From assembly GCA_965203675.1 (NCBI GenBank), contig CBDBDE010000002.1, positions 600,990 through 664,989 of the forward strand: 64,000 nucleotides of DNA, written 5' to 3'. The notes below the pieces were generated by a model that did no database searches, had not been told where the DNA came from, and saw only the letters and a list, made by a program, of their open reading frames with translations. The stretch's first letter is position 1, and each line of letters begins with the position of its first letter. The position numbers were made by a program, and so were the translations under genes. The stretch comes from Dehalococcoidia bacterium. Lineage in GTDB: Bacteria > Chloroflexota > Dehalococcoidia > Lucifugimonadales > UBA3495. This document shows positions 32,106 through 45,281 of the stretch, in pieces.

Positions 32106-32309
32106 CCCGCCTGGCCGGGTTATAGTCTCCTGTCCCTATAGTGCGGAGTCCTTCCTGTCGGGCTTGGCTTGCCAAGTCCGCAGTCCCGGCTCCACAATTT
32201 CCGCACACTTCCCGCATACTATTGCTTGTGCCCCCTTGCCACGAGGACAACCGCCCGGCTGGCCTCGTGATAAGGTGAGCCCGAATGTTGATGCTTGGAG
32301 GCCCGGCTG

Positions 32310-33232: not shown

Positions 33233-35335
33233 ATGATGTGGGGGCTCCAGCAGATACTGCGTCCGGTGCAATGGCTCGTCTCGTCCCTGGCTTCCCTCGG
33301 ATTCTGGCGTTACCTGGCCCTCCTGGCAATCCTGCTTGGCTCCGCCGCCGGGACTTTCGCCGTTTACGACGACTATACGGCTCCTGAGCCCAGCGCCCTG
33401 TCCGAGGAGGAACAGTTAATTCCGGTCCGCATGGGAGACCTGGTCAACAAGGTCTCCACCAGCGGCAGCCTGGCTTTCCCGGAAAGAGAGTCGGTCGCGT
33501 TCAACTCCGATGGCCGCCTTGGACGCCTTGCCGTCGCCGAGGGGCAGTGGGTTGACCGGGGCGACGCCGTGGCACGTCTGGACGATTCGTCGTTGGCCTA
33601 CCTGGGGGATGCCGTGTTGCGGGCCGAGGCCGAGCTCTGGGAGGCCGAGGATGCCCTGGGCGGCCAGGAGTTCGAGTTTGCCGTCGAGGTGCTGGCCGCC
33701 GAGGAGAAGGTACTGGCCGCCGATTCCGCCCTGGAGCAGGCTAGGGAAGCGTTGGCCGACGCCCAACAGCCCTACACCAATGATCAACTGCAGGCCCAGT
33801 ACGAGGTGGTAGCCGCGGCGGAGCTCGATTGGCAGGATGCCCGGGATGCCCTGGAAGCCCTCATCATAGACAATTCCCAGGAGCTGATCGTGGCTCTGCG
33901 GGAAGTGGCCGGGGCCGAGCTTGCCCTGGACACTTCGCGGACCAGCCTGTCCGAGTATGCCGCCGACCTGGAGTTCCAGATCCCCGAAGCTTCTCAGGCA
34001 TTCATCAACGCCACCATCGCCTTGAACGATGCGGAAAATGCTTTCGAGGAGTACGAGGACAGGAATCAGGAATGGTTGGTCCTGCGCCTCCGGGAGCTGG
34101 AAGAAATCCAGGATGACCTGGCCTCCACCCGGGGCGATCTCCAGCGCTTCCGCGCCTACGAGGAAGACCATCCCAACGCTTTCAGCCACCTGGTCAGCCA
34201 GTGGGAATTCTTCGTCGAAACCTACGAGGAGGATGAGGAGGGTCTGCTGGACCTGCTGGTGGAGCACCGCCGCTTGAAGGCCAACGTGGTGGTGGCGCGG
34301 GAAGAGTTGCGCCGCGCTGCCGAGAACCTGGGTGAGCTGCAACAGGGGCCGGACCTGCTGATGTTGGGGGATCTGGAGGCGGCCGTACAGTTGGCCGAGC
34401 TGGAGTTGGAGCAGGCCAGAGACCGGGTAACGGAGCTGGAGGAAGGCGTCGACCCTCTGCTGGTCGGCCTCCGGCAGCGCCAGGTGGAAGCGGCCGGGGC
34501 CGCTTGGGAACAGGCCCGCACCGACCTGGACGAGATGCTCGCCGGTGGAGACCCAATTGACATAAGCCTGAAGGAGAAACAGGTACAGTTGGCCGAGACC
34601 ACCCTGGAGCAGGCCCGGTACGAGTTGTCCCTGCTGTCTCAGCGGGACCGGGATCGGGAACTGGCCCTGCTGGAAGCCGACATTGCCCTGGCCCGCCAGA
34701 AGATCGCCGACGCCCGCCGGGCGTTGGAAGAGGCAACCCTGCTGGCGCCCATCGCCGGCATCGTCTCCGCAGTACACCTGGAGGAAGGGGATAACGTGGA
34801 GGCGGAGACCGTGGTAGCCGAAATCGTGGATACCAGGGTGGTGGAGATTGACGGGGTGGTGGACGAGATCGATGTGCTGTCCATCGCGGTCGGGACGGAG
34901 GCCGGGGTGACTTTCGACGCGCTCAAGGGGGAGGTGTTCGACGGGGTCGTTACGGAGATCGCCGAGGAAGGAGCCAACCAGCAGGGGGTGGTGACCTATG
35001 CGGTGAAGTCCCGGGTGGACCTCCCTGAGGGAATCGAGCTGCGGGAGGGTCTGACGGCCGTGGTGGAAATGGTGCTGAACGAGGAACGGAACGTCCTCCT
35101 GGTCCCGCAGCAGGCCCTCTATGGAACGTTCGATTCGCCAACGGTGCGGGTCATGACGGACACTGGCGCGGTGGAGCGTCCAATAACGCTGGGCAACAGC
35201 GACGATTTCTGGGTGGCGGTGCGGACCGGTCTGCAGGAGGGCGATACCATAGTCATGGAAACCGCCGAGGTGACCACCTCCGGCGCGGGGTTCCGTCAGC
35301 TCCGCACGGTATCCGGTGGGGGCCGCCGCCGTTAG
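33233..35335 (+). CDS. HlyD/MacA-type periplasmic adaptor with very long coiled coil
   Basis: N-terminal TM, barrel-sandwich segments ('GQWVDRGDAVARLDD', 'TLLAPIAGIVSAVHLEEGDNV'), about 400 aa of E/A/L/Q-rich heptad-like sequence in between. Precedes the MacB-like ABC genes. Confidence 0.75.
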   Translation: MMWGLQQILRPVQWLVSSLASLGFWRYLALLAILLGSAAGTFAVYDDYTAPEPSALSEEEQLIPVRMGDLVNKVSTSGSLAFPERESVAFNSDGRLGRLAVAEGQWVDRGDAVARLDDSSLAYLGDAVLRAEAELWEAEDALGGQEFEFAVEVLAAEEKVLAADSALEQAREALADAQQPYTNDQLQAQYEVVAAAELDWQDARDALEALIIDNSQELIVALREVAGAELALDTSRTSLSEYAADLEFQIPEASQAFINATIALNDAENAFEEYEDRNQEWLVLRLRELEEIQDDLASTRGDLQRFRAYEEDHPNAFSHLVSQWEFFVETYEEDEEGLLDLLVEHRRLKANVVVAREELRRAAENLGELQQGPDLLMLGDLEAAVQLAELELEQARDRVTELEEGVDPLLVGLRQRQVEAAGAAWEQARTDLDEMLAGGDPIDISLKEKQVQLAETTLEQARYELSLLSQRDRDRELALLEADIALARQKIADARRALEEATLLAPIAGIVSAVHLEEGDNVEAETVVAEIVDTRVVEIDGVVDEIDVLSIAVGTEAGVTFDALKGEVFDGVVTEIAEEGANQQGVVTYAVKSRVDLPEGIELREGLTAVVEMVLNEERNVLLVPQQALYGTFDSPTVRVMTDTGAVERPITLGNSDDFWVAVRTGLQEGDTIVMETAEVTTSGAGFRQLRTVSGGGRRR

Positions 35336-35364
35336 GTCCAAGTCTGCCGACAGGGATTCGCAGC

Positions 35365-36048
35365 GTGATCGAACTGCAGGACATAACCAAGGTCTACCGG
35401 ATGGGAAACGTCGAGGTGGCGGCCCTGCGGGGGGTCAGCCTGTCGGTGGCGGCCGGCGAGATGACGGCCATCATGGGGGCGTCCGGCTCGGGCAAGTCCA
35501 CGCTGATGAACATACTGGGCTGCCTGGACGTGCCGACTTCCGGCGCCTACTTGCTGGAAGGCGAGGACGTGGGAAAGCTGGGGGACGACCGGCTGGCGGG
35601 GATCCGCAACCACAAGATCGGGTTCGTGTTCCAGACCTACAACCTGCTGCCCCGCCTGTCGGCCCTGGCCAACGTGGAGCTTCCCCTGCTCTACGGCAAC
35701 GGCTCCAACCGGCGCCGCCGGGCCATGGAAGCGCTGGAGCGCGTGGGCCTGGGAGACCGGGTCCACCACAAGCCGACGGAGCTTTCCGGAGGACAGCAGC
35801 AGCGGGTGGGCATCGCCCGGGCCCTGGTCAAGGACCCGTCCCTGCTGATGGCCGACGAGCCAACGGGCAACCTGGACAGCCAGTCCAGCGAGGAGATCGT
35901 CCGAATCCTGCAGGGGCTGAACCGGGAGCAGGGACTAACGGTGGTCATCATCACCCACGAAGCGGACATCGCCGCCGCCACCAGCCGGGTGATAACCCTG
36001 CGGGACGGCCTGGTGGTGGAGGACCGGGCGCGAGCGGAGGCGGCTTGA
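35365..36048 (+). CDS. ABC transporter ATP-binding protein (MacB/LolD type)
   Basis: 'GASGSGKST', 'FVFQTYNLLPRLSALANVELP', '[15 protein letters not shown]', 'LLMADEPTGNLD'. Confidence 0.9.
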   Translation: MIELQDITKVYRMGNVEVAALRGVSLSVAAGEMTAIMGASGSGKSTLMNILGCLDVPTSGAYLLEGEDVGKLGDDRLAGIRNHKIGFVFQTYNLLPRLSALANVELPLLYGNGSNRRRRAMEALERVGLGDRVHHKPTELSGGQQQRVGIARALVKDPSLLMADEPTGNLDSQSSEEIVRILQGLNREQGLTVVIITHEADIAAATSRVITLRDGLVVEDRARAEAA

Positions 36049-36123
36049 CGGTTGACACGGCGCCGGGGAGCCGGGGAATATCCGCTACAGGATACGGGGT
36101 ATGAATCAGGCCAACGGGTGGGA

Positions 36124-39027
36124 ATGATGCCGCACCAGACGGAACCCAGCGCCAATAACGCCCTGGGGAACCTGCTCCGCAAGATGATGCGGGGCAGCGG
36201 GATTTACTCGGAAACAACGCAGACTTTCCCCGATTATCCGGGGCGGCACGCCGACGTGCTGCTGACGGCGCCGGGGCGGTCGCCGGTGGCCATCGAGGCG
36301 GAGTACCTGCCGGCGCCGGAGGCAGAAGACGACGCGAGGGCCCGGCTGGGCCTTCGCGTGGGCGGAGAGCCCCGGACAATAGAGGCGGCCGTCGCCGTGC
36401 GGTACCCGGCGGAGGTGGAGGGTGCCTACGACCTGGAAAAGACCCTGGCGGAGTGCCGCCTGTCCTACTGCGTGCTGTACGAGGACGGCAGCCGCTTCCC
36501 CGAATCCGGCTGGCTGAAAGGCGGGGTAGAGGACCTGGCCGACCTGGTGCGGCTGGTGTCGGTGCCCCAGAAGGAGGTGGACCTGGCGGCGGACAACTTG
36601 CAACAGGGCATCGAGACTGCGGCAACGGTCTTTGACCAACTGGACGGGACCTCCCCGGGGATTCCGCAGTCGCTGGCGCGGACGCTGGGCATGGCCAACG
36701 TGCCGCAGACCCGGCGGATGGCCTGCGCCATCATCGCCAACGCCCTGATTTTCCACGAGCGCATCGCGGGGATGTACGAGGGCATCAGGCCGCTGAACCT
36801 GGTGTGCGGGCCGGGAGTGGCTAATCCGCAGACCGTCACGCTGGCGGCGTGGGCGGACATCCTGAAAATCAACTACTGGCCGATCTTCGCCATCGCCCGG
36901 GACCTGCTGGGACAGGTATCGGCGGGAACGGCGGCGGAGATCCTGGCCACGCTGCGGGAGACGGCGCAACAGGTGGACTCGGCGGGAGTGACCAACGCCC
37001 ACGACCTGACGGGCCGCATCTTCCAGCGGCTCATCGCGGACCGGAAGTACCTGGCGACCTTCTACACCCTCCCCGCCTCGGCGGCCCTGCTGGCCCGGCT
37101 GGCGGTGGCGAAGATGGACGGGGTGGACTGGTCGGACGCAGAGGCCATCGGCAAGCTGCGGATTGGGGACTTCGCCTGCGGCACCGGGGCGCTGCTGTCG
37201 GCGGTGTACGAACAGATAGCGGCCCGCCACGAACGGGCCGGGGGAGACCCGGCGGCGTTGCACCGGGTGATGATGGAGGAAGTGCTGTACGGGTGCGACG
37301 TAATGCCCTCGGCGGCCCACATCACCAGCGCCACCCTTTCGGGGGTCCAGCCCGGCGTGGGATTCGGCAAGTCCCGGGTCTACACCATGCCCTACGGACG
37401 GCAATCGGACGGCACGGTAGCCATCGGGTCGCTGGAACTGCTGCAATCGTCCAACACGATGACGCTGTTCAACACCAGCGATCCGGCCTTGCAGACCGGG
37501 AGCCAGGGGGAAGAGACGGCGGCGCAGGTAAACGTGGACATTCCCGACGAGGGATTTGACCTGGTGATAATGAACCCGCCGTTCACCAGTAATACAAAAC
37601 ATCACGATGCTGACGACGGTGTGTTGAATGCTGCTTTCGCCGGCTACAACTCATCGGAAGTTGACCAGAACGAAATGGCTAACCGGCTCAGGAGATTGGC
37701 CCGCGGCATGACCTATCATGGGCACGCTGGGTTGGCGTCAGCTTTTGCATCGTTAGCACACCGAAAGCTCAAGCTAGGGGGTGTGATTGCTTTGGTTTTG
37801 CCCTTCACTGCTATCAACGGGGCATCATGGGGCAAGTTCAGAGAATTATTGGCAAAAAATTATTCTGAACTGGAGATTCTAAGCATCACCGCATCCGGGA
37901 ATGACATGTCATTTTCATCGGATACCGATATAGCGGAATGCCTAGTCATTGGTAGAAAGAATGTGGAGATCGAAAAAGAGTCTGAACTCCCACGAGCAAA
38001 TTTCACTTCTCTACGGAGACGGGCACAGGGATTCGCTCATGCGGCAACAGTTGCAAGCAGGGTAATTGGGAGAATATCCGCGCGTAGTATAGAGGATGGA
38101 CCATACGGCGGGACACCGTTAATGGTCGGAAATGAAATGGCAGGAGAGACGATTGCAGCACCTCTTTCGGATTACGAAAGCGGTTGGGGAACAGCCCGTC
38201 TAGCCGATGCCACCGTGTCACAAGTGGGACATTACCTAGCTGTTGGCAAGCTTTGGCTACCAAATATGCAGTCAGGCTTAGAGGTTCCCATGGTGCAGCT
38301 GGGCGAAATAGGACAATTAGGCGTCCACGACTCCATGTTGACATTGGCCACCCATCTTGGCCCGTTCACGAAAGAGCCACCCAGTCCGACGGCAACATAC
38401 CCAGCCCTTTACAACCACAATGCAAAGAGAGAAACCAGGCTGATTTGCGAACCTGATTCACAAATGCGTGTAAAGCAAGGGATGGAGGAAAGGGCTATCA
38501 AGCTTTGGGATACAGCCTCACGGTGTCTGATCAGCAGGGGGTTCCGTTTCAATTCACAACCTCTTGCAGTAGCTTTTGCGCAAAGCATTTGCCTCGGCGG
38601 GAGGGCATGGCCAAATGTAAAGTTGTCGAGCGAAAGGTTCGACTACGCATTTTCTATTTGGTGCAATAGCACCTTGGGGGTTATGGGCTATTGGCGCCAC
38701 TCGACCCGTCAGCAAGCAGGCCGAGGAGAAATGACTCGCGGTGGAATACGTCTTTTGCCCGTCCTGGACTTCCGCGAATTAACCGATTCGCAGTTGGCGA
38801 AGGCGGAGGAAATCTTCAACGAGTTCCGGGACAGGGAGCTGATGCCGGCCTACCTGGCGGATGCGGACCCGAACCGGGCCCTGCTGGACCGGCGGGTGGT
38901 GTGCGATCTGCTGGGGTTCGGGGAGGATGTTTACCAGGGGGTGCGGCGGCTGGCGGCCAAGTGGTGCGCCGAGCCATCGGTCCACGGCGGGAAGGCACGC
39001 CCCAAGGACGCGGGGCTGGTGATGTGA
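36124..39027 (+). CDS. Large gamma-class N6-adenine DNA methyltransferase, MmeI-like (type IIG-style) architecture
   Basis: 'ATFYTLPASAALLARL', motif I 'IGDFACGTGALLSAV', 'LYGCDVMPSAAHITSATL', motif IV 'FDLVIMNPPFTS', 'GGVIALVLPFTAI'. N-terminal 'HADVLL...VAIEAEY' resembles a PD-(D/E)xK core but lacks the Lys. About 400 aa of C-terminal TRD-like region. ATG 36124 preferred over TTG 36052. Confidence 0.8.
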   Translation: MMPHQTEPSANNALGNLLRKMMRGSGIYSETTQTFPDYPGRHADVLLTAPGRSPVAIEAEYLPAPEAEDDARARLGLRVGGEPRTIEAAVAVRYPAEVEGAYDLEKTLAECRLSYCVLYEDGSRFPESGWLKGGVEDLADLVRLVSVPQKEVDLAADNLQQGIETAATVFDQLDGTSPGIPQSLARTLGMANVPQTRRMACAIIANALIFHERIAGMYEGIRPLNLVCGPGVANPQTVTLAAWADILKINYWPIFAIARDLLGQVSAGTAAEILATLRETAQQVDSAGVTNAHDLTGRIFQRLIADRKYLATFYTLPASAALLARLAVAKMDGVDWSDAEAIGKLRIGDFACGTGALLSAVYEQIAARHERAGGDPAALHRVMMEEVLYGCDVMPSAAHITSATLSGVQPGVGFGKSRVYTMPYGRQSDGTVAIGSLELLQSSNTMTLFNTSDPALQTGSQGEETAAQVNVDIPDEGFDLVIMNPPFTSNTKHHDADDGVLNAAFAGYNSSEVDQNEMANRLRRLARGMTYHGHAGLASAFASLAHRKLKLGGVIALVLPFTAINGASWGKFRELLAKNYSELEILSITASGNDMSFSSDTDIAECLVIGRKNVEIEKESELPRANFTSLRRRAQGFAHAATVASRVIGRISARSIEDGPYGGTPLMVGNEMAGETIAAPLSDYESGWGTARLADATVSQVGHYLAVGKLWLPNMQSGLEVPMVQLGEIGQLGVHDSMLTLATHLGPFTKEPPSPTATYPALYNHNAKRETRLICEPDSQMRVKQGMEERAIKLWDTASRCLISRGFRFNSQPLAVAFAQSICLGGRAWPNVKLSSERFDYAFSIWCNSTLGVMGYWRHSTRQQAGRGEMTRGGIRLLPVLDFRELTDSQLAKAEEIFNEFRDRELMPAYLADADPNRALLDRRVVCDLLGFGEDVYQGVRRLAAKWCAEPSVHGGKARPKDAGLVM

Positions 39028-39046
39028 TGACGGGCCGGGGTAAGCC

Positions 39047-40270
39047 GTGAACCCGCTGGCGACCCTCAGCGTCGCACTGGCTTCCCTGGCAGCGAACAAG
39101 CTGCGGGCGGCGCTGACCCTGCTGGGGATAATCATCGGGGTCTCGGCGGTGATAACGCTGATGGCCATCGGCCGGGGCGTCCAGGACTCGATTACGGAAA
39201 ACCTGCGCTCCCTGGGGACCAACCTGCTGTTCGTGCAGCCCGCCGCATCAGGGGATGCAGCCGGAATGCTCACCCTGGAGGACGCTCTGGCCCTGGAAGA
39301 CCCCCTGTTCGCCCCCTCGGTGGTGGGGGTGGCCCCGGAACTCCGCAACAGCGGAACGGCCGTGGCGGGAAGGAACAACACCAACACCCAGATCGTGGGC
39401 GTCACCCCGCCCTACCAGGAGGTGCGCAACTTTCCCGTTGCCTCCGGCCAGTTCATCACCCACGGGCACGTTGACCAGATATCCCAGGTGGCGGTGCTGG
39501 GCTCCGAGGTGGCGCAGACGCTGTACGGCTTCCGCGACCCGGTGGGCCAGGCCCTGCGGCTGAACGGCCGGCAGTTCCAGGTGGTCGGGGTGCTGGAAAG
39601 CAAGGGCGGGTCCTTCCTGGGGTCCTTCGACGAGCAGGTGCTGGTGCCGATCACGACGGCCTACTACCGGCTGGGCGGAGAGCGGACGCCCCACGGCGGA
39701 GTCCAGGTGGGCAACATCAACGTCCAGGTTGCCAGCGTTGAGCAGGTGGACCAGGCAGTCCAGGAGGTCGCCACCGTGCTCCGGCTGCGGCACCGCATCA
39801 CCCGGGAGGACGACTTCGTCATCACCAGCCAGCAGGACACGGTGGAGGCGCTGACCGAGACCACCGACACCTTCATCATGTTCCTGGGCTCCATCGCCGG
39901 GATTTCCCTGCTGGTCGGCGGCATCGGGATCATGAACATCATGCTGGTGTCGGTGACGGAGAGGACCAGGGAAATCGGCATCCGCAAGGCCGTGGGGGCC
40001 AAGCGCCGGGACATCCTGCTCCAGTTCGTAGCCGAAGCGACGCTGCTGAGCCTGGGCGGGGGGGCCGCCGGGGTGGTGCTGGGCTGGCTCCTGGCCAACG
40101 CGCTGAACGGATCGGCTATCCTGGGAGGGCGTCCCACGCCCACCGCGGCCAGCCCGGACATCGCCATCCTGGCCTTGGCGGTGTCGGCGGGCATCGGGCT
40201 GTTCTTCGGGATTTACCCGGCCATCCGCGCGGCGTCGCTGCATCCCATCGAAGCCCTGCGGCACGAGTAG
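39047..40270 (+). CDS. ABC transporter permease (MacB/FtsX type)
   Basis: N-terminal TM, MacB periplasmic domain, and FtsX-type C-terminal 3-TM bundle with 'VSVTERTREIGIRKAVGAKRRDILLQF'. Confidence 0.85.
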   Translation: MNPLATLSVALASLAANKLRAALTLLGIIIGVSAVITLMAIGRGVQDSITENLRSLGTNLLFVQPAASGDAAGMLTLEDALALEDPLFAPSVVGVAPELRNSGTAVAGRNNTNTQIVGVTPPYQEVRNFPVASGQFITHGHVDQISQVAVLGSEVAQTLYGFRDPVGQALRLNGRQFQVVGVLESKGGSFLGSFDEQVLVPITTAYYRLGGERTPHGGVQVGNINVQVASVEQVDQAVQEVATVLRLRHRITREDDFVITSQQDTVEALTETTDTFIMFLGSIAGISLLVGGIGIMNIMLVSVTERTREIGIRKAVGAKRRDILLQFVAEATLLSLGGGAAGVVLGWLLANALNGSAILGGRPTPTAASPDIAILALAVSAGIGLFFGIYPAIRAASLHPIEALRHE

Positions 40271-40290: not shown

Positions 40291-40995
40291 GTGACCAAGT
40301 CATTCATAGCCCTGGCGATCATCGCAGCATTCCTGGGAGCAAGCTGGGGAGGAGCATTCATCGGCGGCATCGTCTACGGGGAGTACAGATCGGATGGCGG
40401 CCAACCCCAGGCCGCTCCCCGGTCGCCGGGCGGAGGACAGTTCACCCAGGCGGGGCGGAGCGGCGATGGGAGTGGTGGTGCAGGCGGAAGCGCGGGGCAA
40501 TCGCGCCAGGCCGGTTCAGGCCGTGGCGGGCCGAGCAACGGGGTGTTTACCCGGCAGGACGGGCGTACCGGCCAGCCGGGCGCCCAACCCGCACCGGGAC
40601 AGGACCGGGGCCCGGGATCAGATGCTGGAATGGATGCCCAGTCCTCCGCAGATGAGGCCGGCGGGCCTCCGACCCGTCCGGGTGCGGGACGGGGCGGCGT
40701 CCTGATGGGAACGATCAAGGGCGTGGCGGAAGGGAGCGTTCTCATCGTGACGGAGAGCGAAATGGAAGGCGGGACGGTATCAGCCGCCCTGTCGGAGGAA
40801 ACGGTGATCGTGACCGTGCGGAAAGCTGGGATTGATGACCTTTCCGAAGGAGTCCAGGTTGTGGCGCTGGGGCGGCGGGCCGGCGAGGAACTCACCGCAC
40901 GAGCCCTGCTTCTCAACCCGGATGGTGTGGACGTTTCCTTCCTGGGAGGGAAGCTATCCGGAGGGAGAGAGGACAGGGGAGTGCCGCAACCGTAG
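40291..40995 (+). CDS. Membrane-anchored Gly/Pro/Ser/Gln-rich hypothetical protein
   Basis: GTG start after GAGGGAGGGAAAG. One N-terminal TM, about 110 aa of low-complexity sequence, then a roughly 90-aa C-terminal globular-looking segment. Confidence 0.5.
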   Translation: MTKSFIALAIIAAFLGASWGGAFIGGIVYGEYRSDGGQPQAAPRSPGGGQFTQAGRSGDGSGGAGGSAGQSRQAGSGRGGPSNGVFTRQDGRTGQPGAQPAPGQDRGPGSDAGMDAQSSADEAGGPPTRPGAGRGGVLMGTIKGVAEGSVLIVTESEMEGGTVSAALSEETVIVTVRKAGIDDLSEGVQVVALGRRAGEELTARALLLNPDGVDVSFLGGKLSGGREDRGVPQP

Positions 40996-41043
40996 GGGTG
41001 GTACAATCCCGGTCACATTCTGGCCGGTTTTTCAGGTGATGCG

Positions 41044-42573
41044 ATGCGATACGACGTGGTGATTGTGGGAGCAGGTTCGGCTGGATGCGTCCTGGCGTCC
41101 CGGTTGTCCGAGGACCCGAACCGGACGGTGCTGCTGCTGGAAGCTGGGCCGGACTATCCCGACCCGTCGGCGGTGCCGGACGAGATCCGGTACGACATGA
41201 ACCAGGCGGCGTCCCAGGTGGACGCCCCGCACAACTGGTCTTTCGTGGGGCAGGCCACGCCGCAGGCGCGCGGACACGCCGCCGTGGCCCGGGGGAAGGT
41301 GGTCGGCGGGACCAGCTCCATCAACCACCAGATTTTCCTGCGGGGCGCCCCGGAGGACTACGACAACTGGGCGGCGCTGGGCAATGATGAATGGTCCTAC
41401 GTGAAGGTGCTGCCCTTCTTCCGCAAGCTGGAGACTGACACGGACATAACGGACGACTTTCACGGCTCCGACGGGCCGATCCCGGTGAGGCGGCACCCGA
41501 GGGAGTCGTGGCTGCCCATCCACGCGGCTTTCCACCGCGCTTGCATCGACGCCGGCTTCCCCGAGGACCCGGACATGAACCATCCCGACGGGACCGGGGT
41601 TGGGGCCGTTCCGCTGAACAACCCGGGCGGCGTGCGGATGAGCACGGCCCTCACCTACCTGAACGACTGCCGCCACCGCCTCAACCTGACCATCCGGGGC
41701 GGCGTCATGGTACACCGGGTGCTGTTCCAGGGCGAGCGGGCCGTGGGAGTGGAGGTGGGCAGCGGGGAAGAGACCTTCATCGTGGAGGGGCAGGAGATTA
41801 TCCTGAGCGCGGGGGCCATCCAGTCGCCGCAGCTATTGATGCTGTCCGGCGTGGGGCCGGCCGCCGAGCTGGAGCGGGTGGGGATTCCTCTGGTGAAGGA
41901 CCTCCCCGGGGTGGGGCAAAACATGAAGAACCACCCATCCGCGTCCATCCGGTTCCAGCCCGCCGAGGGCTTGACCCTGGACCCGGGAGCGCCCCGCAAC
42001 CAGGTGGCGCTCCGGTTTGCGCCCGCCGGATCGCGCACCCGCAATGACGTTCAGGTGCAGACCACATCGTCCAATCCGGTGGGCCAGCAGACGGTGGACA
42101 TTCGCATCGGCTGCCGGTTGGAGCTTCCCGACAGCCAGGGGAGCTTGACCCTGGAATCGGCCGACCCGTACCAGCAGCCCCGCCTGGACTACCAGTTCCT
42201 GTCCGAGCCGTGGGACCGGGAGCGAATGAGGGACGCGGTGCGTCGGATGGTGGAGCTGTTCAATCATCCGGCCTTCGAGGGCATCACCGGGGCGCGAATG
42301 GAGCCGGCGGAGGAGACCCTGGCCTCGGACGATGCCCTGGACCTGTGGCTGCAGCAGACGGTGTCCATCGCCGGTCACACGGCCTGCACCTGCCGGATGG
42401 GGCCGGAGGATGATCCGATGGCGGTGGTGGACCAGCACTGCCGGGTCTACGGCGTGGAGGGACTGCGGGTCGTCGATGCGTCGATAATGCCCGACTTGGT
42501 GCGGGCCAACACCAACGCGACGGCAATAATGATCGGAGAGAGAGCGGCGGATTTGATCCGGCAGGGGAAGTAA
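41044..42573 (+). CDS. GMC family oxidoreductase (choline dehydrogenase-like)
   Basis: 'YDVVIVGAGSAGCVLASRLSEDPNRTVLLLEAG' FAD fold, 'GKVVGGTSSINHQIF', and C-terminal 'GHTACTCRMGP...VVDASIMP'. Confidence 0.9.
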   Translation: MRYDVVIVGAGSAGCVLASRLSEDPNRTVLLLEAGPDYPDPSAVPDEIRYDMNQAASQVDAPHNWSFVGQATPQARGHAAVARGKVVGGTSSINHQIFLRGAPEDYDNWAALGNDEWSYVKVLPFFRKLETDTDITDDFHGSDGPIPVRRHPRESWLPIHAAFHRACIDAGFPEDPDMNHPDGTGVGAVPLNNPGGVRMSTALTYLNDCRHRLNLTIRGGVMVHRVLFQGERAVGVEVGSGEETFIVEGQEIILSAGAIQSPQLLMLSGVGPAAELERVGIPLVKDLPGVGQNMKNHPSASIRFQPAEGLTLDPGAPRNQVALRFAPAGSRTRNDVQVQTTSSNPVGQQTVDIRIGCRLELPDSQGSLTLESADPYQQPRLDYQFLSEPWDRERMRDAVRRMVELFNHPAFEGITGARMEPAEETLASDDALDLWLQQTVSIAGHTACTCRMGPEDDPMAVVDQHCRVYGVEGLRVVDASIMPDLVRANTNATAIMIGERAADLIRQGK

Positions 42574-42636
42574 GCTTATAGAAAGGTGGTTGGGGGCTTT
42601 GGCAGTATATCCAGCCGGGTGAATGAGGTCCAAAAC

Positions 42637-43023
42637 ATGGTCGCGACGGAAGAAGCTAGAAAAGTTTTCCAAGATGCGCGGGCGTTATATGAAGACGCCC
42701 TCGAAATGCTGGCCCAGGACAGAATCCGCAATGCCGCGGAAAAAGCGTGGGGAGCCACCAAGAGAGCAACGGACGCGCTGGTTCTGGCACGTACCGGGGA
42801 GTTGCCTGAACTACCGGCAGAGACGGCTCATGGCCTGCGCCTCCTACAGGCAGAGGATGAATCTGTTGAGGAAGCCCGTCTCGTTGCCAGGTACTACACC
42901 CGCCAGGGGTCACTCCACGGCCACTGTTTCTACATGGGTCTCTGCGACCCTATTGCAGACACGGAGCGCCGGATACGCGAGACAATTGACTATATCCGGG
43001 ACGCTGAGAACTTGGCATCATAA
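42637..43023 (+). CDS. Small helical protein, PaREP1/HEPN-like (tentative)
   Basis: 128 aa. 'AAEKAWGATKRATDALVLA' and 'GSLHGHCFYMG' align with 'ASEKVWGAANYALKAVAVQ' and 'ARAIHFNFYEN' of the paralog at 54819-55346. Confidence 0.5.
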   Translation: MVATEEARKVFQDARALYEDALEMLAQDRIRNAAEKAWGATKRATDALVLARTGELPELPAETAHGLRLLQAEDESVEEARLVARYYTRQGSLHGHCFYMGLCDPIADTERRIRETIDYIRDAENLAS

Positions 43024-43049
43024 ACTTGAGATTTCCCAAAGGAAGCAGA

Positions 43050-45281
43050 ATGGTTGTCACCAAGAACATCGGCCTGGCGACGCCCCGGCAGGACGGTGAG
43101 GCCAAGGTGACCGGGGCCACGCGGTACACCCAGGACCTGTCCCTCCCCGGGACGCTGTGGGGACGGTGCCTGCGCAGCCCGTTACCCCACGCGCGCATTA
43201 CCAGTATCGATACCTCGGCGGCGGAAGGACTGCCCGGCGTCCACGCCGTAATCACCGGGGCCGACGTGCGGGGACTGCGCTACGGCCGGCGCCTGCACGA
43301 CGTTCCGGTGCTGGCGGATGACCGGGTCCGGTTTGTGGGGGAGCGCGTGGTGGCGGTCGCGGCTGAGGACCGGGAAACGGCGGAGGCGGCGCTGCTGCTC
43401 ATCGACGTGACCTACGAGGAGCTTCCTGCCGTCTTCGACCCGAAGGAAGCCCTGGCCGGCGGAGCACCGGTCCTGCATCCCGACTATAACTCCTACGCGG
43501 GTATTCCCCGTCCTCTGGAGACGCTGTCCAACGCCTTTGTCACGGATACCTGGGGCAAGGGCAACGTGGAGGTCGGTTTCCTGGAAGCGGACCTGATCTT
43601 GGAGGGGACCTACTCGGTGCCCAGGCAGCACCAGGCCTACCTGGAAGGACACTCCTGCCTGGTGTGGGTCGACGAAGACGACCGGATCCAGGTGTGGGCC
43701 TCCAACAAGGTCCCATTCCAGGTGAAGGAACAGTTGACCATCGGGCTGGGCTTGCCGGAGGGCCGTATCCGGCTGAACCCGGTGGACATCGGCGGCGACT
43801 ATGGGGGGAAGGGCTCGCCGATGGACATTCCCGTGGCCTACTACCTGGCGGCGAAGACGGCGCGTCCGGTGCGGATGGCTATGGACTCGCTGGAGGAGTT
43901 CACCGCGGGCAATCCCCGTCACGCTGCGACCATCCACCTGAAAACAGGAGTCAAGCGGGACGGAACGCTGACCGCCCAGGAATCCCAGGTTTGGTTCAAC
44001 AGCGGCGCCTACGGGGGGTTCAAGCCGGCCCCCGGCTGCAACCTGGGCGGAGCGGCCAAGGCCGGCGGCCCTTACCGGATTCCCCACGTCCGGCTAACCG
44101 GCACCCAGGTCTACACCAACACCGTACCGGGCGGGTTCATGCGGGCGCCGGGGGAGCCCCAGGTAGTTTTCGCCGCCGAGTCGCACATGGACGAGATTGC
44201 CGCTCAACTGGGGTTGGATCCGGTGGAGTTCCGGCTCAAGAACCTGCTGCGTGAGGGGGACGTTGATCCGGTGGGGATGAGGTACCAGAACATACGGGCG
44301 CGCCAGACGGTGGAATCGGCGGTGGGGGCGTCCGGCTACCGGTCGCCCAAGCCTGACAACGTGGGCCGGGGGATAGCGGTGGGCGAGCGCACGACGGCCG
44401 GGGGCGAGTCCCACACGGCAGTAACCCTCCACCTCGACGGGTCGGTGGTGGTCAACTCATCCATCTTCGAGCCGGGCACCGGGACCTACACGGTCCTGAG
44501 CAAGATCGTGGCGGAGGAACTGGGCCTTCCGGTGGACCGGGTCTCGGTGGAGGTCTGGGACACCGACGCCGTTCCCTTCGACACGGGAGTGGGCGGCAGC
44601 CGGTCAACGCGCATGGCGGGAATGGCGGCCCTGGAGGCGTCGGCGGATGTGTCCCAGCAGTTGTACCGGGTGACCGGCGACCTGTTGGGGTGGCCGGAAG
44701 GCGAACTGTCCATCGAGGGGGACGACATCGTCCGGCGGGATACGGGAGAACGCTCACCGTGGGTAGACATCCTGGCTCGGATCGGCGGTCCGGTTTCCGG
44801 GCGGGGGACGGCGATGGATCCGGACCGGTCGCCGATAACGTCGTTTACGGCCCAGGTGGCGGAGGTGTCGGTGGACCCGGAGACGGGAGCGGTGCGTCTG
44901 GAGCGGCTGACCACCGCGCACGACGTGGGAACGGTGCTCAACCCGCTAGACCACCAGGGCCAGATAGAAGGCGCCGTGATCCAGGGAGTCGGGTTTGCGC
45001 TGACGGAAGAGCTGGGCGTTGAAGAGGGAAGGGTCTCCACTGTCAGCTTCGGGGACTACAAGATTCCGAATGTAGCGGATGTTCCTGTGCTGGATACGGT
45101 GGTGCTGGAGTCGGGTATGGGTTCGGGTCCGTACAACGCGAGGGGGATCGGGGAGAACCCCAGCGGGTGCGTCGCTCCCGCCATCGCCAACGCCGTAGCC
45201 GACGCGGTGGGGGCGCGGGTCAAGGAGCTGCCGGTGACGGCGGAGAGGGTGTACCGGGCCTTAAATGGTGAGGGCAGCTAG
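43050..45281 (+). CDS. Xanthine dehydrogenase family protein, molybdopterin-binding (large) subunit
   Basis: 'RQDGEAKVTGATRYTQDLSLPGTLWGRCLRSPLPHARITSID' and the XDH/aldehyde oxidase C-terminal region ('RGIGENPSGCVAPAIANAV'). Confidence 0.85.
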   Translation: MVVTKNIGLATPRQDGEAKVTGATRYTQDLSLPGTLWGRCLRSPLPHARITSIDTSAAEGLPGVHAVITGADVRGLRYGRRLHDVPVLADDRVRFVGERVVAVAAEDRETAEAALLLIDVTYEELPAVFDPKEALAGGAPVLHPDYNSYAGIPRPLETLSNAFVTDTWGKGNVEVGFLEADLILEGTYSVPRQHQAYLEGHSCLVWVDEDDRIQVWASNKVPFQVKEQLTIGLGLPEGRIRLNPVDIGGDYGGKGSPMDIPVAYYLAAKTARPVRMAMDSLEEFTAGNPRHAATIHLKTGVKRDGTLTAQESQVWFNSGAYGGFKPAPGCNLGGAAKAGGPYRIPHVRLTGTQVYTNTVPGGFMRAPGEPQVVFAAESHMDEIAAQLGLDPVEFRLKNLLREGDVDPVGMRYQNIRARQTVESAVGASGYRSPKPDNVGRGIAVGERTTAGGESHTAVTLHLDGSVVVNSSIFEPGTGTYTVLSKIVAEELGLPVDRVSVEVWDTDAVPFDTGVGGSRSTRMAGMAALEASADVSQQLYRVTGDLLGWPEGELSIEGDDIVRRDTGERSPWVDILARIGGPVSGRGTAMDPDRSPITSFTAQVAEVSVDPETGAVRLERLTTAHDVGTVLNPLDHQGQIEGAVIQGVGFALTEELGVEEGRVSTVSFGDYKIPNVADVPVLDTVVLESGMGSGPYNARGIGENPSGCVAPAIANAVADAVGARVKELPVTAERVYRALNGEGS

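What the first reader, a model, noticed from the sequence alone, without database searches (positions are those of the whole stretch)
36052..39046. MmeI-like N6-adenine methyltransferase inserted exactly between the ATPase and permease genes of a MacAB-type efflux operon
Seen: the HlyD adaptor (33233-35335) and ABC ATPase (35365-36048) are separated from their FtsX-type permease (39047-40270) by a single 968-codon gene. That gene sits within about 75 nt of the ATPase stop and 20 nt of the permease start, on the same strand. It has gamma-class amino-methyltransferase motifs ('DFACGTGALL', 'NPPF') and a long C-terminal region, the size and order of type IIG (MmeI-like) enzymes. Its N-terminal 'D-x13-E-A-E' segment resembles a PD-(D/E)xK core with the Lys replaced. 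Established: MacB-type ATPase and permease genes are normally adjacent or fused, and type IIG enzymes combine nuclease, methyltransferase and target-recognition domains in one chain. Inference: a restriction-modification-like or orphan methylase gene has inserted into, and is probably co-transcribed with, an efflux operon. The nuclease may be inactivated.
Basis: partly seen in the sequence, partly recalled or inferred. Interest (0 to 1): 0.7.

Follow-up and report, generated by a model that had tools for sequence, protein, structure and literature searches.

The report
Restriction-modification gene inserted in efflux operon
A 967-residue gene for a single-chain restriction-modification-type enzyme (nuclease-like domain, adenine DNA methyltransferase, swappable recognition module) has been inserted between the ATPase and permease genes of a MacB-type efflux operon, at a spot where closely related strains carry other restriction-modification systems or nothing, which is a clear but not unprecedented example of defence-gene turnover.

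Summary
ORF 36124-39027 (+, 967 aa) lies 75 nt after the ABC ATPase stop and 19 nt before the MacB_PCD/FtsX permease start. It carries DFACGTGALL, NPPF and D44-x13-E58-A-E60.

It is an insertion. Five to six relatives have an empty site where the ATPase stop overlaps the permease start by 4 nt; one of them is 95-97% identical in flanking DNA. At the same junction, other close relatives carry an m5C methylase + nuclease + Vsr system, or an N4/N6 methylase + PLD nuclease system.

A confident AlphaFold model (pLDDT 89) best matches the type IIG enzyme RM.BpuSI. Strict MmeI membership is not supported. The nuclease-like motif is conserved family-wide (E7, D44, E58 invariant; position 60 is E, K in two members), which argues against decay.

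Three orthologous copies differ only in a 1.2-kb segment (37580-38759, 52-57% identity). It starts at the NPPF codons, as expected for a recognition-domain swap.

The family is large, unnamed and concentrated in Dehalococcoidia/Chloroflexota. It is always solitary and sits in at least 53 contexts.

Verdict: a new member of a known kind. Enzyme activity and co-transcription are untested.

The parts
33233..35335 (+). HlyD/YknX-type periplasmic adaptor of the efflux operon (700 aa)
   Evidence: Pfam HlyD_3 and HlyD_D23; NCBIfam RND_mfp 1.7e-37. Syntenic in all related loci.
35365..36048 (+). MacB/LolD-type ABC ATPase (227 aa). It lacks the roughly 19-aa C-terminal tail that overlaps the permease start in empty-site relatives (240 aa there).
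   Evidence: ABC_tran 8e-34; MacB N-terminal half 4.5e-80. Tail comparison.
36049..36069 (+). Left junction sequence (CGGTTGACACGGCGCCGGGGA). It is shared with L095 (same gene) and with L088, which carries a different R-M cassette. The cassettes diverge from 36070. It contains a TTGACA hexamer.
   Evidence: Junction alignments. The promoter scan did not call a sigma-70 site here.
36124..39027 (+). Inserted gene: single-chain type IIG-like restriction-modification enzyme (967 aa)
   Evidence: Eco57I domain. AlphaFold2 model with pLDDT 89.2 and pTM 0.91. Foldseek top hit RM.BpuSI at 5.9e-16 over the whole length. Absent from orthologous loci.
36124..36528 (+). N-terminal nuclease-like domain (aa 1-135) with predicted alpha-beta-beta-beta-alpha-beta core. 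E7 is at 36142-36144, P43-D44 at 36250-36255, E58 at 36295-36297 and E60 at 36301-36303.
   Evidence: Secondary structure of the model. E7, D44 and E58 invariant; P43 and E60 at least 90%; K at position 60 in 2 of 25 members. No sequence-profile match to any Pfam or PDB entry.
36529..37158 (+). All-helical connector (aa 136-345), with the highly conserved PQTRRMACAIIANA segment
   Evidence: Model helices H135-H343; conservation. Part of it (36565-37064) is swapped in L095, at 70% identity.
37159..37983 (+). Gamma-class N6-adenine DNA methyltransferase domain (aa 346-620). Motif I DFACGTGALL is at 37168-37197 and motif IV NPPF at 37573-37584.
   Evidence: Pfam Eco57I aa 388-588. Profile hits to PglX/BrxX and DrdV. 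Motif residues D349, G353, T354, G355, N484, P485 and P486 invariant in the wide family; F487 invariant in A1 and A3.
37580..38759 (+). Exchangeable low-GC module (aa ~487-879: methyltransferase motifs after IV plus the putative target-recognition domain). There are three mutually distinct alleles in three orthologous loci.
   Evidence: DNA identity between window, L001 and L095 is 52-57% here against 84-94% on both sides, with sharp breakpoints. GC is 0.47-0.53 against 0.68-0.72. aa 620-760 is the least conserved part.
38760..39027 (+). Conserved C-terminal helical segment (aa ~880-967, ...PAYLADADPNRALLDRR...AEPSVHGGKARP) and stop codon
   Evidence: 84-90% DNA identity to L001 and L095; near-invariant in the family. 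Isolated remnants of this segment lie next to family genes in L018, L033 and L061.
39028..39046 (+). Right junction (TGACGGGCCGGGGTAAGCC). Its last ~15 nt are shared by the different cassettes and resemble the native ATPase 3' end of empty-site relatives.
   Evidence: Junction alignments.
39047..40270 (+). MacB-type permease (407 aa, GTG start)
   Evidence: MacB_PCD 2.3e-48; FtsX 1.5e-23. 96-100% identical proteins sit in loci with other inserts or none.
40291..41027 (+). Conserved downstream ORF of unknown function (234 aa), followed by the first convincing + strand terminator-like hairpin (41009-41027). This is the probable operon end.
   Evidence: The ORF is syntenic in all relatives.

Best explanation
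The gene 36124-39027 is a horizontally acquired, solitary, single-chain restriction-modification (R-M) enzyme of type IIG architecture.

Domain order:
- An N-terminal PD-x13-E-x-E nuclease-like domain.
- A helical connector.
- A gamma-class N6-adenine DNA methyltransferase.
- A target-recognition region.
- A conserved C-terminal helical segment.

Inferred action: it methylates an adenine in its recognition sequence on host DNA and cuts unmodified incoming DNA near that sequence.

Location: it sits at the junction of two genes that are translationally coupled in the ancestral state, the MacB-type ATPase and permease. The insertion replaced the 57-nt overlapping tail of the ATPase gene.

That junction is a polymorphic R-M locus within one population. 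Strains 94-97% identical in flanking DNA carry this gene, an m5C methylase/nuclease/Vsr system, an N4/N6 methylase/PLD-nuclease system, or nothing.

Specificity is probably diversified by homologous replacement of a 1.2-kb internal module. The module is bounded by the conserved NPPF codons and by the conserved 3' segment.

The permease, and probably the gene itself, must be expressed by read-through from upstream. The efflux function and the methylase are otherwise unrelated.

Shown: gene presence, domain content, fold similarity, insertion polymorphism, the alternative cassettes, the module swap, and family distribution.
Inferred: DNA methylation, cleavage, changed specificity, co-transcription, and the mechanism of insertion.
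For: Layout and domains.

Insertion:
- Empty sites with a 4-nt ATPase/permease overlap occur in L084, L089 and L094 (permease 96-99% identical) and in the more distant L087 and L090-93 (83-85%). Empty is therefore the ancestral state (sequences).
- Different cassettes occupy the same junction. L083 has C5 DNA_methylase + endonuclease-like protein + Vsr. L088 has N6_N4_Mtase + PLDc_2. PADLOC confirms them as R-M components.
- The same family gene is at this site in L001 and L095.
- By flank identity the window is as close to the empty L094 (95-96.6%) as to L083 and L088.

Enzyme type:
- The model has pLDDT 89.2 and pTM 0.91.
- Foldseek gives RM.BpuSI at 5.9e-16 over 1086 columns, then CamA, DrdV, BrxX/PglX, M.BseCI and LlaBIII, all adenine DNA methyltransferases.
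- The PDB profile search gives PglX/BrxX and DrdV.
- BpuSI has an N-terminal PD-x15-ExK nuclease joined to methylase and recognition domains (PMC3185434).

Nuclease motif conservation.

Solitary gene: no recurrent neighbour in 82 loci, which fall into 53 contexts.

Module swap:
- Breakpoints at about 37580 and 38760, with three alleles at 52-57% identity.
- The L095 module is 86% identical to those of genes in unrelated contexts, while its N-terminal part is only 80-82% identical to them.

Foreign origin:
- Codon third-position GC (GC3) is 0.78-0.84 in the conserved parts and 0.60-0.68 in the module.
- This is nearly independent of host flank GC, which ranges 0.53-0.70 (r = 0.21 and 0.32).

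Precedents: R-M insertion into operon-like clusters, allelic R-M substitution, and target-recognition domain (TRD) substitution in type IIG genes (PMC2853133); NmeDI between pheS and pheT (PMC7973814).
Against: - No activity data of any kind exist. Neither methylation nor cleavage was observed.
- The third catalytic position is Glu rather than the canonical Lys. That Glu at this position can be active, as in BamHI-type sites, is my own recollection and not a test.
- The N-terminal domain has no sequence-profile match to any nuclease family. The coordinates of the model could not be inspected to confirm that E7, D44, E58 and E60 cluster together.
- Global TM-scores to BpuSI are low (0.34-0.37), as expected for multi-domain proteins but not proof of domain-by-domain equivalence.
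- No target duplication, inverted repeats or recombinase explain how the gene arrived.
- The flanks of occupied alleles differ from the empty allele in a way that a single simple insertion does not explain.
- L095 has a 1-nt deletion in the gene, and in L001 the permease is split. Some copies or host genes may therefore be decaying, or the assemblies may contain errors.
Confidence: 0.75

Rival explanations
1. It is a solitary (orphan) DNA adenine methyltransferase. The N-terminal domain no longer cuts DNA and serves only for DNA binding or regulation. The gene would then act in epigenetic regulation, or protect the genome against similar enzymes in the community.
For: E-x-E replaces E-x-K at the third catalytic position in at least 90% of members. 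The N-terminal domain matches no nuclease profile. Orphan methylases derived from R-M systems are common; this is established knowledge and was not tested here.
Against: E7, D44 and E58 are invariant down to 31% identity, and K occurs at position 60 in some members, which indicates selection on an active-site geometry. The gene shares its site with complete R-M systems. Rapid module exchange, several paralogues per genome and host-independent composition are typical of defence genes.
Confidence: 0.17
2. It is the methyltransferase component (PglX/BrxX-, MAD2- or DrmMI-like) of a multi-gene defence system whose partners lie elsewhere.
For: The best sequence-profile matches in the PDB are PglX/BrxX (5e-6 to 8e-6), and there are weak PADLOC hits to mad2 and PglX.
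Against: No recurrent neighbour gene exists in 82 family loci. The flanking genes here are efflux-pump genes. The matches cover only the methyltransferase motifs. An N-terminal nuclease-like domain is not part of my recollection of PglX. The Foldseek top hit is a type IIG enzyme.
Confidence: 0.04
3. The three-gene arrangement is an old, functional part of the efflux operon, or the protein methylates RNA or protein rather than DNA.
For: It is on the same strand as the pump genes with very short spacers. There are weak Pfam MTS and METTL5-type hits around NPPF.
Against: Empty sites with overlapping ATPase and permease genes occur in close and in more distant relatives. The gene occurs in 53 other, unrelated contexts. 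All strong structural matches are DNA adenine methyltransferases. The MTS/METTL5 matches cover only about 22-33 residues around NPPF.
Confidence: 0.03

Closest known systems
RM.BpuSI (PDB 3S1S) and type IIG/IIC single-chain restriction-modification enzymes such as Eco57I
   Same: One polypeptide with an N-terminal PD...ExK-type nuclease domain, helical connector, gamma-class N6-adenine methyltransferase (Eco57I-type Pfam domain) and recognition domain. It is the best fold match, over the whole length. BpuSI has PD-x15-ExK (PMC3185434); here the motif is PD-x13-ExE.
   Different: Only about 11% sequence identity. The third catalytic residue is Glu, not Lys. There is an extra conserved C-terminal helical segment. 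The N- and C-terminal parts match no Pfam family. Activity is untested.
MmeI family / type IIL enzymes (MmeI, DrdV)
   Same: Same size and domain order. It is a family of highly similar proteins whose specificity region varies. DrdV is among the best fold and profile matches.
   Different: No hits to the Pfam MmeI_N, MmeI_hel, MmeI_TRD or MmeI_C models. Only 3 of 49 relatives touch MmeI_Mtase weakly. MmeI itself is absent from the listed PDB matches. The catalytic motif spacing and residue differ from my recollection of MmeI (D-x8-9-ExK).
BREX methyltransferase PglX/BrxX (8C45, 8Q56, 9EWZ)
   Same: Closest solved sequences for the motif I to motif II region, with good fold matches.
   Different: PglX works with BrxA/B/C, PglZ and BrxL. 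None of these is nearby and no neighbour recurs. This protein has an N-terminal nuclease-like domain.
Allelic restriction-modification loci and R-M insertions into operon-like clusters (Furuta, Abe and Kobayashi 2010, PMC2853133; Neisseria pheS-pheT locus with NmeDI, PMC7973814)
   Same: Different R-M systems or nothing at one chromosomal position in related strains. Insertion at the start/stop boundary of co-oriented genes. Allelic substitution of the recognition domain within a type IIG gene.
   Different: Here the host is a MacB-type efflux operon in uncultured Dehalococcoidia-like bacteria. No long target duplication or repeats were found. The junction was an overlapping stop/start.
MacAB / YknXYZ-type (type VII) ABC exporters
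   Same: The host operon has the HlyD/YknX-like adaptor, a LolD/MacB-type ATPase and a MacB_PCD+FtsX permease. ATPase and permease are adjacent and overlapping in relatives.
   Different: In this genome the two genes are separated by 3 kb of foreign DNA, and the ATPase has lost its short C-terminal tail.

Membership tests
Type IIG (single-chain) restriction-modification enzymes | Gamma-class N6-adenine DNA methyltransferase domain with motif I (xFxGxG) before motif IV (NPPF/Y) | tested here: met
   DFACGTGALL at aa 349-358 and NPPF at aa 484-487. Pfam Eco57I 1.6e-7, above cutoff. Motifs I and IV conserved across the wide family: D349, G353-G355 and N484-P486 invariant in A2; F487 invariant in A1 and A3. 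Fold matches are all adenine DNA methyltransferases.
Type IIG (single-chain) restriction-modification enzymes | Nuclease domain fused in the same chain, N-terminal, of PD-(D/E)xK type | tested here: inconclusive
   PD-x13-E-x-E lies on consecutive predicted strands after a helix that carries invariant E7. Two relatives have E-x-K. The full-length Foldseek alignment is to BpuSI. There is no nuclease profile hit, and the active-site geometry in the model could not be inspected.
Type IIG (single-chain) restriction-modification enzymes | Target-recognition region in the same chain, variable between alleles; no separate M or S gene | tested here: met
   aa 620-880 is the least conserved part. Three alleles at 52-57% DNA identity sit in orthologous loci. 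No conserved neighbour gene.
Type IIG (single-chain) restriction-modification enzymes | SAM-dependent or SAM-stimulated cleavage at or near a specific site, and methylation of that site | not testable with these tools
   Needs enzyme assays or methylome data.
MmeI family (type IIL) | Matches to the family's domain models (Pfam MmeI_N, MmeI_hel, MmeI_Mtase, MmeI_TRD, MmeI_C) | tested here: not met
   No hit for the window protein even at E<=10. Only 3 of 49 relatives hit MmeI_Mtase (best 5.8e-5) and none hit the other models.
MmeI family (type IIL) | Closest structural or sequence relative is MmeI | tested here: not met
   MmeI is not among the PDB profile hits at E<=10 and not in the 50 best Foldseek matches, which are led by BpuSI.
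MmeI family (type IIL) | Modification of one strand only, with cleavage about 20 nt away | not testable with these tools
   Needs biochemistry.
BREX (PglX/BrxX methyltransferase) | Encoded with brxA/B/C, pglZ and brxL partners | tested here: not met
   The neighbours are efflux-pump genes. No recurrent neighbour in 82 loci.
R-M gene inserted into an operon / allelic R-M locus (Furuta et al. 2010 classes) | Related genomes with homologous flanks but no R-M gene, or a non-homologous R-M system, at the same position | tested here: met
   Empty: L084, L089, L094, L087, L090-93. Other systems: L083 and L088.
R-M gene inserted into an operon / allelic R-M locus (Furuta et al. 2010 classes) | Long target duplication or flanking repeats marking the insertion | tested here: not met
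   No flanking direct or inverted repeat beyond chance-level short matches. Only about 15-20 nt junction strings are shared between cassettes.
MacB-type (type VII) ABC exporter operon (the host) | Adaptor + ATPase + MacB_PCD/FtsX permease, with ATPase and permease adjacent or fused | tested here: met
   Domains. Adjacency with a 4-nt overlap in relatives.

The most novel reading that the evidence does not exclude
The family may be an ORF-sized, self-propagating restriction-modification element. Several observations fit this:
- Homology between copies begins at the start codon and ends at the stop codon.
- Composition ignores the host's GC.
- Copies sit in at least 53 contexts, often two per genome or in tandem.
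- No recombinase or repeats accompany the gene.
- Orphan 3' remnants begin close to the 3' breakpoint of the variable module (exactly so in L033).

On this reading the enzyme's own nuclease creates the breaks that let it, or competing R-M cassettes, enter stop/start junctions of coupled genes. The conserved NPPF codons and the 3' segment would act as built-in recombination anchors for a population-wide pool of recognition modules.
Probability: 0.12. Interest if true: 0.75.

Novelty: new member of a known kind. Interest (0 to 1): 0.45.

Why it matters
- It gives a clean natural example of defence-gene turnover inside an operon. At least three unrelated restriction-modification systems and an empty state occupy one stop/start junction in strains about 95% identical.
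- It identifies a large family of type IIG-like enzymes that sources name only 'hypothetical protein' or 'N-6 DNA methylase'. The family is concentrated in Dehalococcoidia/Chloroflexota and has a modular, exchangeable recognition segment.
- If the alleles have different specificities, the family could supply new restriction enzymes with predictable module boundaries.
- It could also help explain barriers to gene flow in an abundant, uncultured soil and subsurface lineage.
- It raises a testable question: does splitting translationally coupled pump genes by 3 kb of foreign DNA cost the host anything?

Tried and rejected
- First AlphaFold run, with 30 close homologues: pLDDT 53. It was discarded. 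A 104-sequence alignment with the 38-43% identity clade fixed the model.
- Exact look-up of the window protein's own contig: not on record.
- Single-sequence PDB search: nothing useful.
- Profile of the N-terminal 140 aa against the PDB: only spurious designed armadillo-repeat hits. Against Pfam: nothing.
- Pfam scans of the N- and C-terminal thirds at E<=10: nothing.
- Search for target-site duplications or terminal inverted repeats around the insert: only chance-level short matches.
- A tempting TGACGG...GCCGGGG repeat at both junctions is imperfect and not shared by all occupied alleles. I do not claim it.
- Sigma-70 scan: no promoter called in 36049-36123 despite a TTGACA hexamer.
- Upstream regions of 86 family genes share no conserved motif.
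- Source names for ten diverse relatives: none beyond 'hypothetical protein'.
- Literature search for this family in Dehalococcoidia: nothing specific.
- Considered and rejected: ancient operon member, BREX component, RNA or protein methyltransferase (see the rival explanations).


Full report
**1. The observation**

The + strand of 33233-40270 carries four genes in a row:
- an HlyD-type adaptor (33233-35335);
- an ABC ATPase (35365-36048);
- a long ORF that ends at 39027;
- a permease (39047-40270).

Pfam and NCBIfam identify the adaptor (HlyD_3, RND_mfp) and the ATPase (ABC_tran 8e-34; N-terminal half of MacB 4.5e-80). The permease hits MacB_PCD at 2.3e-48 and FtsX at 1.5e-23. The long ORF contains an Eco57I-type methylase domain at 1.6e-7, above Pfam's threshold.

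The family-consistent start is ATG 36124, giving MMPHQTEP... and 967 aa. This leaves 75 nt after the ATPase stop and 19 nt before the permease GTG.

DFACGTGALL (aa 349-358), NPPF (aa 484-487) and D44-x13-E58-A-E60 are all present.

**2. It is an insertion, at a polymorphic site**

I searched with the permease and looked up the contigs that encode its closest relatives. All share the neighbourhood esterase / Fur / YceI / adaptor / ATPase / permease / conserved ORF / GMC oxidoreductase.

| Locus | Permease identity to window | Content of the ATPase-permease junction |
|---|---|---|
| L094 | 99% | empty; 240-aa ATPase whose stop overlaps the permease start by 4 nt |
| L084 | 97% | empty, same overlap |
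| L089 | 96% | empty, same overlap |
| L090-93 | 85% | empty; 262-aa ATPase with the same 4-nt overlap |
| L087 | 83% | empty; 241-aa ATPase with the same 4-nt overlap |
| L083 | 98% | C5 DNA methylase + 397-aa endonuclease-like protein + Vsr |
| L088 | 99% | N4/N6 methylase + PLD-family nuclease |
| L095 | 98% | same family gene as the window |
| L001 | ~95% | same family gene as the window |

PADLOC confirms the L083 and L088 inserts as R-M components.

In flanking DNA the window is as close to the empty L094 (95-96.6%) as to L083 and L088 (94-97.5%). This is therefore presence/absence and replacement polymorphism within roughly one species-level population. The more distant relatives show that empty is the ancestral state.

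The insertion reading stands.

**3. The junctions**

- All alleles are homologous up to ...GTGGAGGACC on the left and from the permease start codon on the right.
- Occupied alleles lack the 57-nt ATPase tail of the empty allele, so the ATPase is 227 aa rather than 240 aa.
- On the left, the window shares ...GGCGGCTTGACGGTTGACACGGCGCC(A/G)GGGA with L095 and also with L088, which holds a different cassette. Divergence begins at 36070.
- L001 and L083 share a second type of left flank.
- All cassettes are followed by about 15-19 nt (GGGCCGGGGTAAGCC) that resemble the native end of the ATPase gene.
- Cassette type and flank type occur in all combinations. That points to replacement by recombination after one or a few original insertions.
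- I found no target duplication, inverted repeats or recombinase. The insertion mechanism is unknown.

**4. What the protein is**

Sequence searches:
- Profile searches place only the methyltransferase core. Hits are Eco57I (Pfam), weak Alw26I/MAD2 (NCBIfam), and MTase_II, mad2 and PglX (PADLOC).
- A family profile against PDB sequences finds PglX/BrxX (about 5e-6), DrdV (1.6e-4) and LlaBIII, but not MmeI.
- No MmeI-specific Pfam model is hit, even at E<=10.

Structure:
- A first model from 30 close homologues was poor (pLDDT 53).
- Adding a 38-43% identity clade gave pLDDT 89.2 and pTM 0.91.
- Foldseek against the PDB ranks the type IIG enzyme RM.BpuSI first (5.9e-16, alignment spanning both proteins). 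CamA, DrdV, BrxX/PglX, M.BseCI and LlaBIII follow, all adenine-specific DNA methyltransferases.
- BpuSI couples an N-terminal PD-x15-ExK nuclease to methylation and recognition domains (PMC3185434).

Predicted domain layout:

| Residues | Predicted element |
|---|---|
| 1-135 | alpha-beta-beta-beta-alpha-beta domain |
| 136-345 | helical connector |
| 346-620 | Rossmann-type methyltransferase |
| 620-880 | mixed alpha/beta region |
| 880-967 | helical end |

So 'type IIG-like architecture' is supported, and 'member of the MmeI family' is not.

**5. The nuclease-like motif**

- In 49 relatives down to 31% identity, E7, D44 and E58 are invariant.
- In the N-terminal alignment, P43 and E60 are at least 90% conserved. 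Two members have Lys at position 60 (ECK, EDK), so the motif reads PD-x13-E-x-(E/K).
- D44 and E58/E60 sit on consecutive predicted strands that follow a helix carrying E7. This is the classical arrangement.
- Competence is unproven. No nuclease profile matches. That Glu can replace Lys in active enzymes, as in BamHI, is my own recollection.

**6. A swapped internal module**

Window, L001 and L095 were compared across the gene.

| Region | Window coordinates | DNA identity between the three |
|---|---|---|
| Conserved parts on both sides | outside 37580-38759 (except 36565-37064 in L095) | 84-94% |
| Internal module | 37580-38759 | 52-57%, all three mutually distinct |

- The edges are sharp. 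The 5' edge coincides with the NPPF codons (37573-37584) and the 3' edge with about aa 879.
- L095 has also exchanged 36565-37064.
- The L095 module is 86% identical to modules of genes in unrelated contexts, although its N-terminal part is only 80-82% identical to those genes. The two parts therefore have different histories.
- The module includes the least conserved stretch, aa 620-760.
- It is GC-poor, 0.47-0.53 against 0.68-0.72.

[quoted passage not shown] (PMC2853133).

**7. The family**

- Size: 6556 hits in the 90% clusters. The best 120 are about 965 aa long and 63-75% identical. In the 50% clusters, 3810 representatives reach E<=1e-3 and 1255 reach E<=1e-30.
- Names: sources offer no name beyond 'hypothetical protein' or 'N-6 DNA methylase' on plasmids. 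Partial halovirus homologues are annotated 'type IIG restriction modification enzyme'.
- Taxonomy: in species-representative genomes, the 80 best loci are almost all Dehalococcoidia/Chloroflexota MAGs. Several genomes have two copies, and tandem copies occur in L019, L046 and L051.
- Context: no neighbour gene recurs. The 82 loci fall into 53 contexts.
- Boundaries: homology between copies starts at the start codon, and upstream regions are unrelated.
- Composition: across 86 copies, codon third-position GC (GC3) is 0.78-0.84 in the conserved parts and 0.60-0.68 in the module. It correlates only weakly with host flank GC, which ranges 0.53-0.70 (r = 0.21 and 0.32). This is a signature of frequent horizontal spread.
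- Remnants: short leftovers of the conserved 3' segment lie beside complete genes in L018, L033 and L061.

**8. Expression**

- The 19-nt spacer before the permease leaves no room for a separate promoter.
- The first convincing + strand terminator-like hairpin is at 41009-41027, and a promoter-like site lies at 32169-32198 upstream of the YceI gene.
- The scan also lists one weak + strand match inside the gene at 37726-37742 (5 pairs, 3 G-C), which I take to be chance.
- Read-through transcription from the pump genes through the insert to the permease is therefore the simplest reading. It is inference only.
- The scan did not call the TTGACA hexamer at 36052-36057 as a promoter.

**9. Verdict**

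Two details are not supported, namely MmeI membership and nuclease decay.

What the tools added:
- the hotspot with alternative R-M systems;
- the sharply bounded recognition-module swap;
- the existence of a large uncharacterised Chloroflexota-centred family.

All three phenomena have published precedents (PMC2853133, PMC7973814). I therefore rate this as a new member of a known kind, of moderate interest. Enzyme activity, specificity and the insertion mechanism remain to be tested.

Noticed in passing
window 42586-43023 (+): A 145-aa PaREP1-family ORF (Pfam 1.1e-7) in a GC dip (~0.57) lies between the GMC oxidoreductase (41044-42573) and the xanthine-dehydrogenase-like gene (43026-45281). 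It is at the same place in L094 and L095 and absent in L083, L088, L084 and L089. This is a second small accessory insertion/deletion polymorphism 3.5 kb from the first.
   Followed up: partly
L001 10922-12144 and 8001-10925: In the orthologous locus L001 the permease is called as two ORFs (268 + 142 aa). The methylase gene has lost its normal stop and reads into the permease start (974 aa). This could be decay of the pump after insertion, or an assembly error.
   Followed up: no
L095 4094-6981 (window-equivalent position 37129): The same family gene at the same site is split into 364 + 602 aa by a 1-nt deletion. It also carries a second swapped segment, equivalent to window 36565-37064, at 70% identity.
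   Followed up: partly
L001 7853-8000: The left flank of L001 has about 90 extra nt containing two adjacent palindromes (GGGGGATGCATCCCCC and CCCCCTGAATTCAGGGGG). These are absent from the window.
   Followed up: no
L019, L046, L051 (tandem pairs); L039; L018 6001-6090; L033 9349-9558; L061 9741-9953: Tandem full-length paralogues of the family occur at 54-60% identity to the window protein, and one distant paralogue in L039 at 28%. Isolated remnants of the conserved C-terminal segment (aa ~878-967) lie next to complete genes. In L033 the remnant begins at the 3' breakpoint of the variable module (aa 878); in L061 it begins at aa 897 and in L018 at aa 919.
   Followed up: partly
all 86 family gene copies in L001-L082 and the window: There is a family-wide two-part composition. 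GC3 is about 0.8 in the first half and the last tenth of the gene and about 0.6 in deciles 6-9. It is only weakly related to host GC (0.53-0.70). The window copy shows the largest contrast (0.176 in GC).
   Followed up: yes
L085 and L086 (permease 86% identical): In these relatives the same operon is hit by IS elements (DDE_Tnp_1_4, IS110-type and IS1595-type transposases) in or near the adaptor and ATPase genes. The ATPase-permease spacer there is 61 nt and contains a duplicated ATGAACCCC string.
   Followed up: no
L083 15003-15224 and L088 14993-15224 (about 8 kb downstream of the permease): A gene with a faint HSDR_N (type I restriction subunit N-terminal) hit sits downstream in relatives. 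The corresponding window region (about 46-48 kb) showed a Rieske-type neighbour and an NHL-repeat protein but was not examined for this gene.
   Followed up: no
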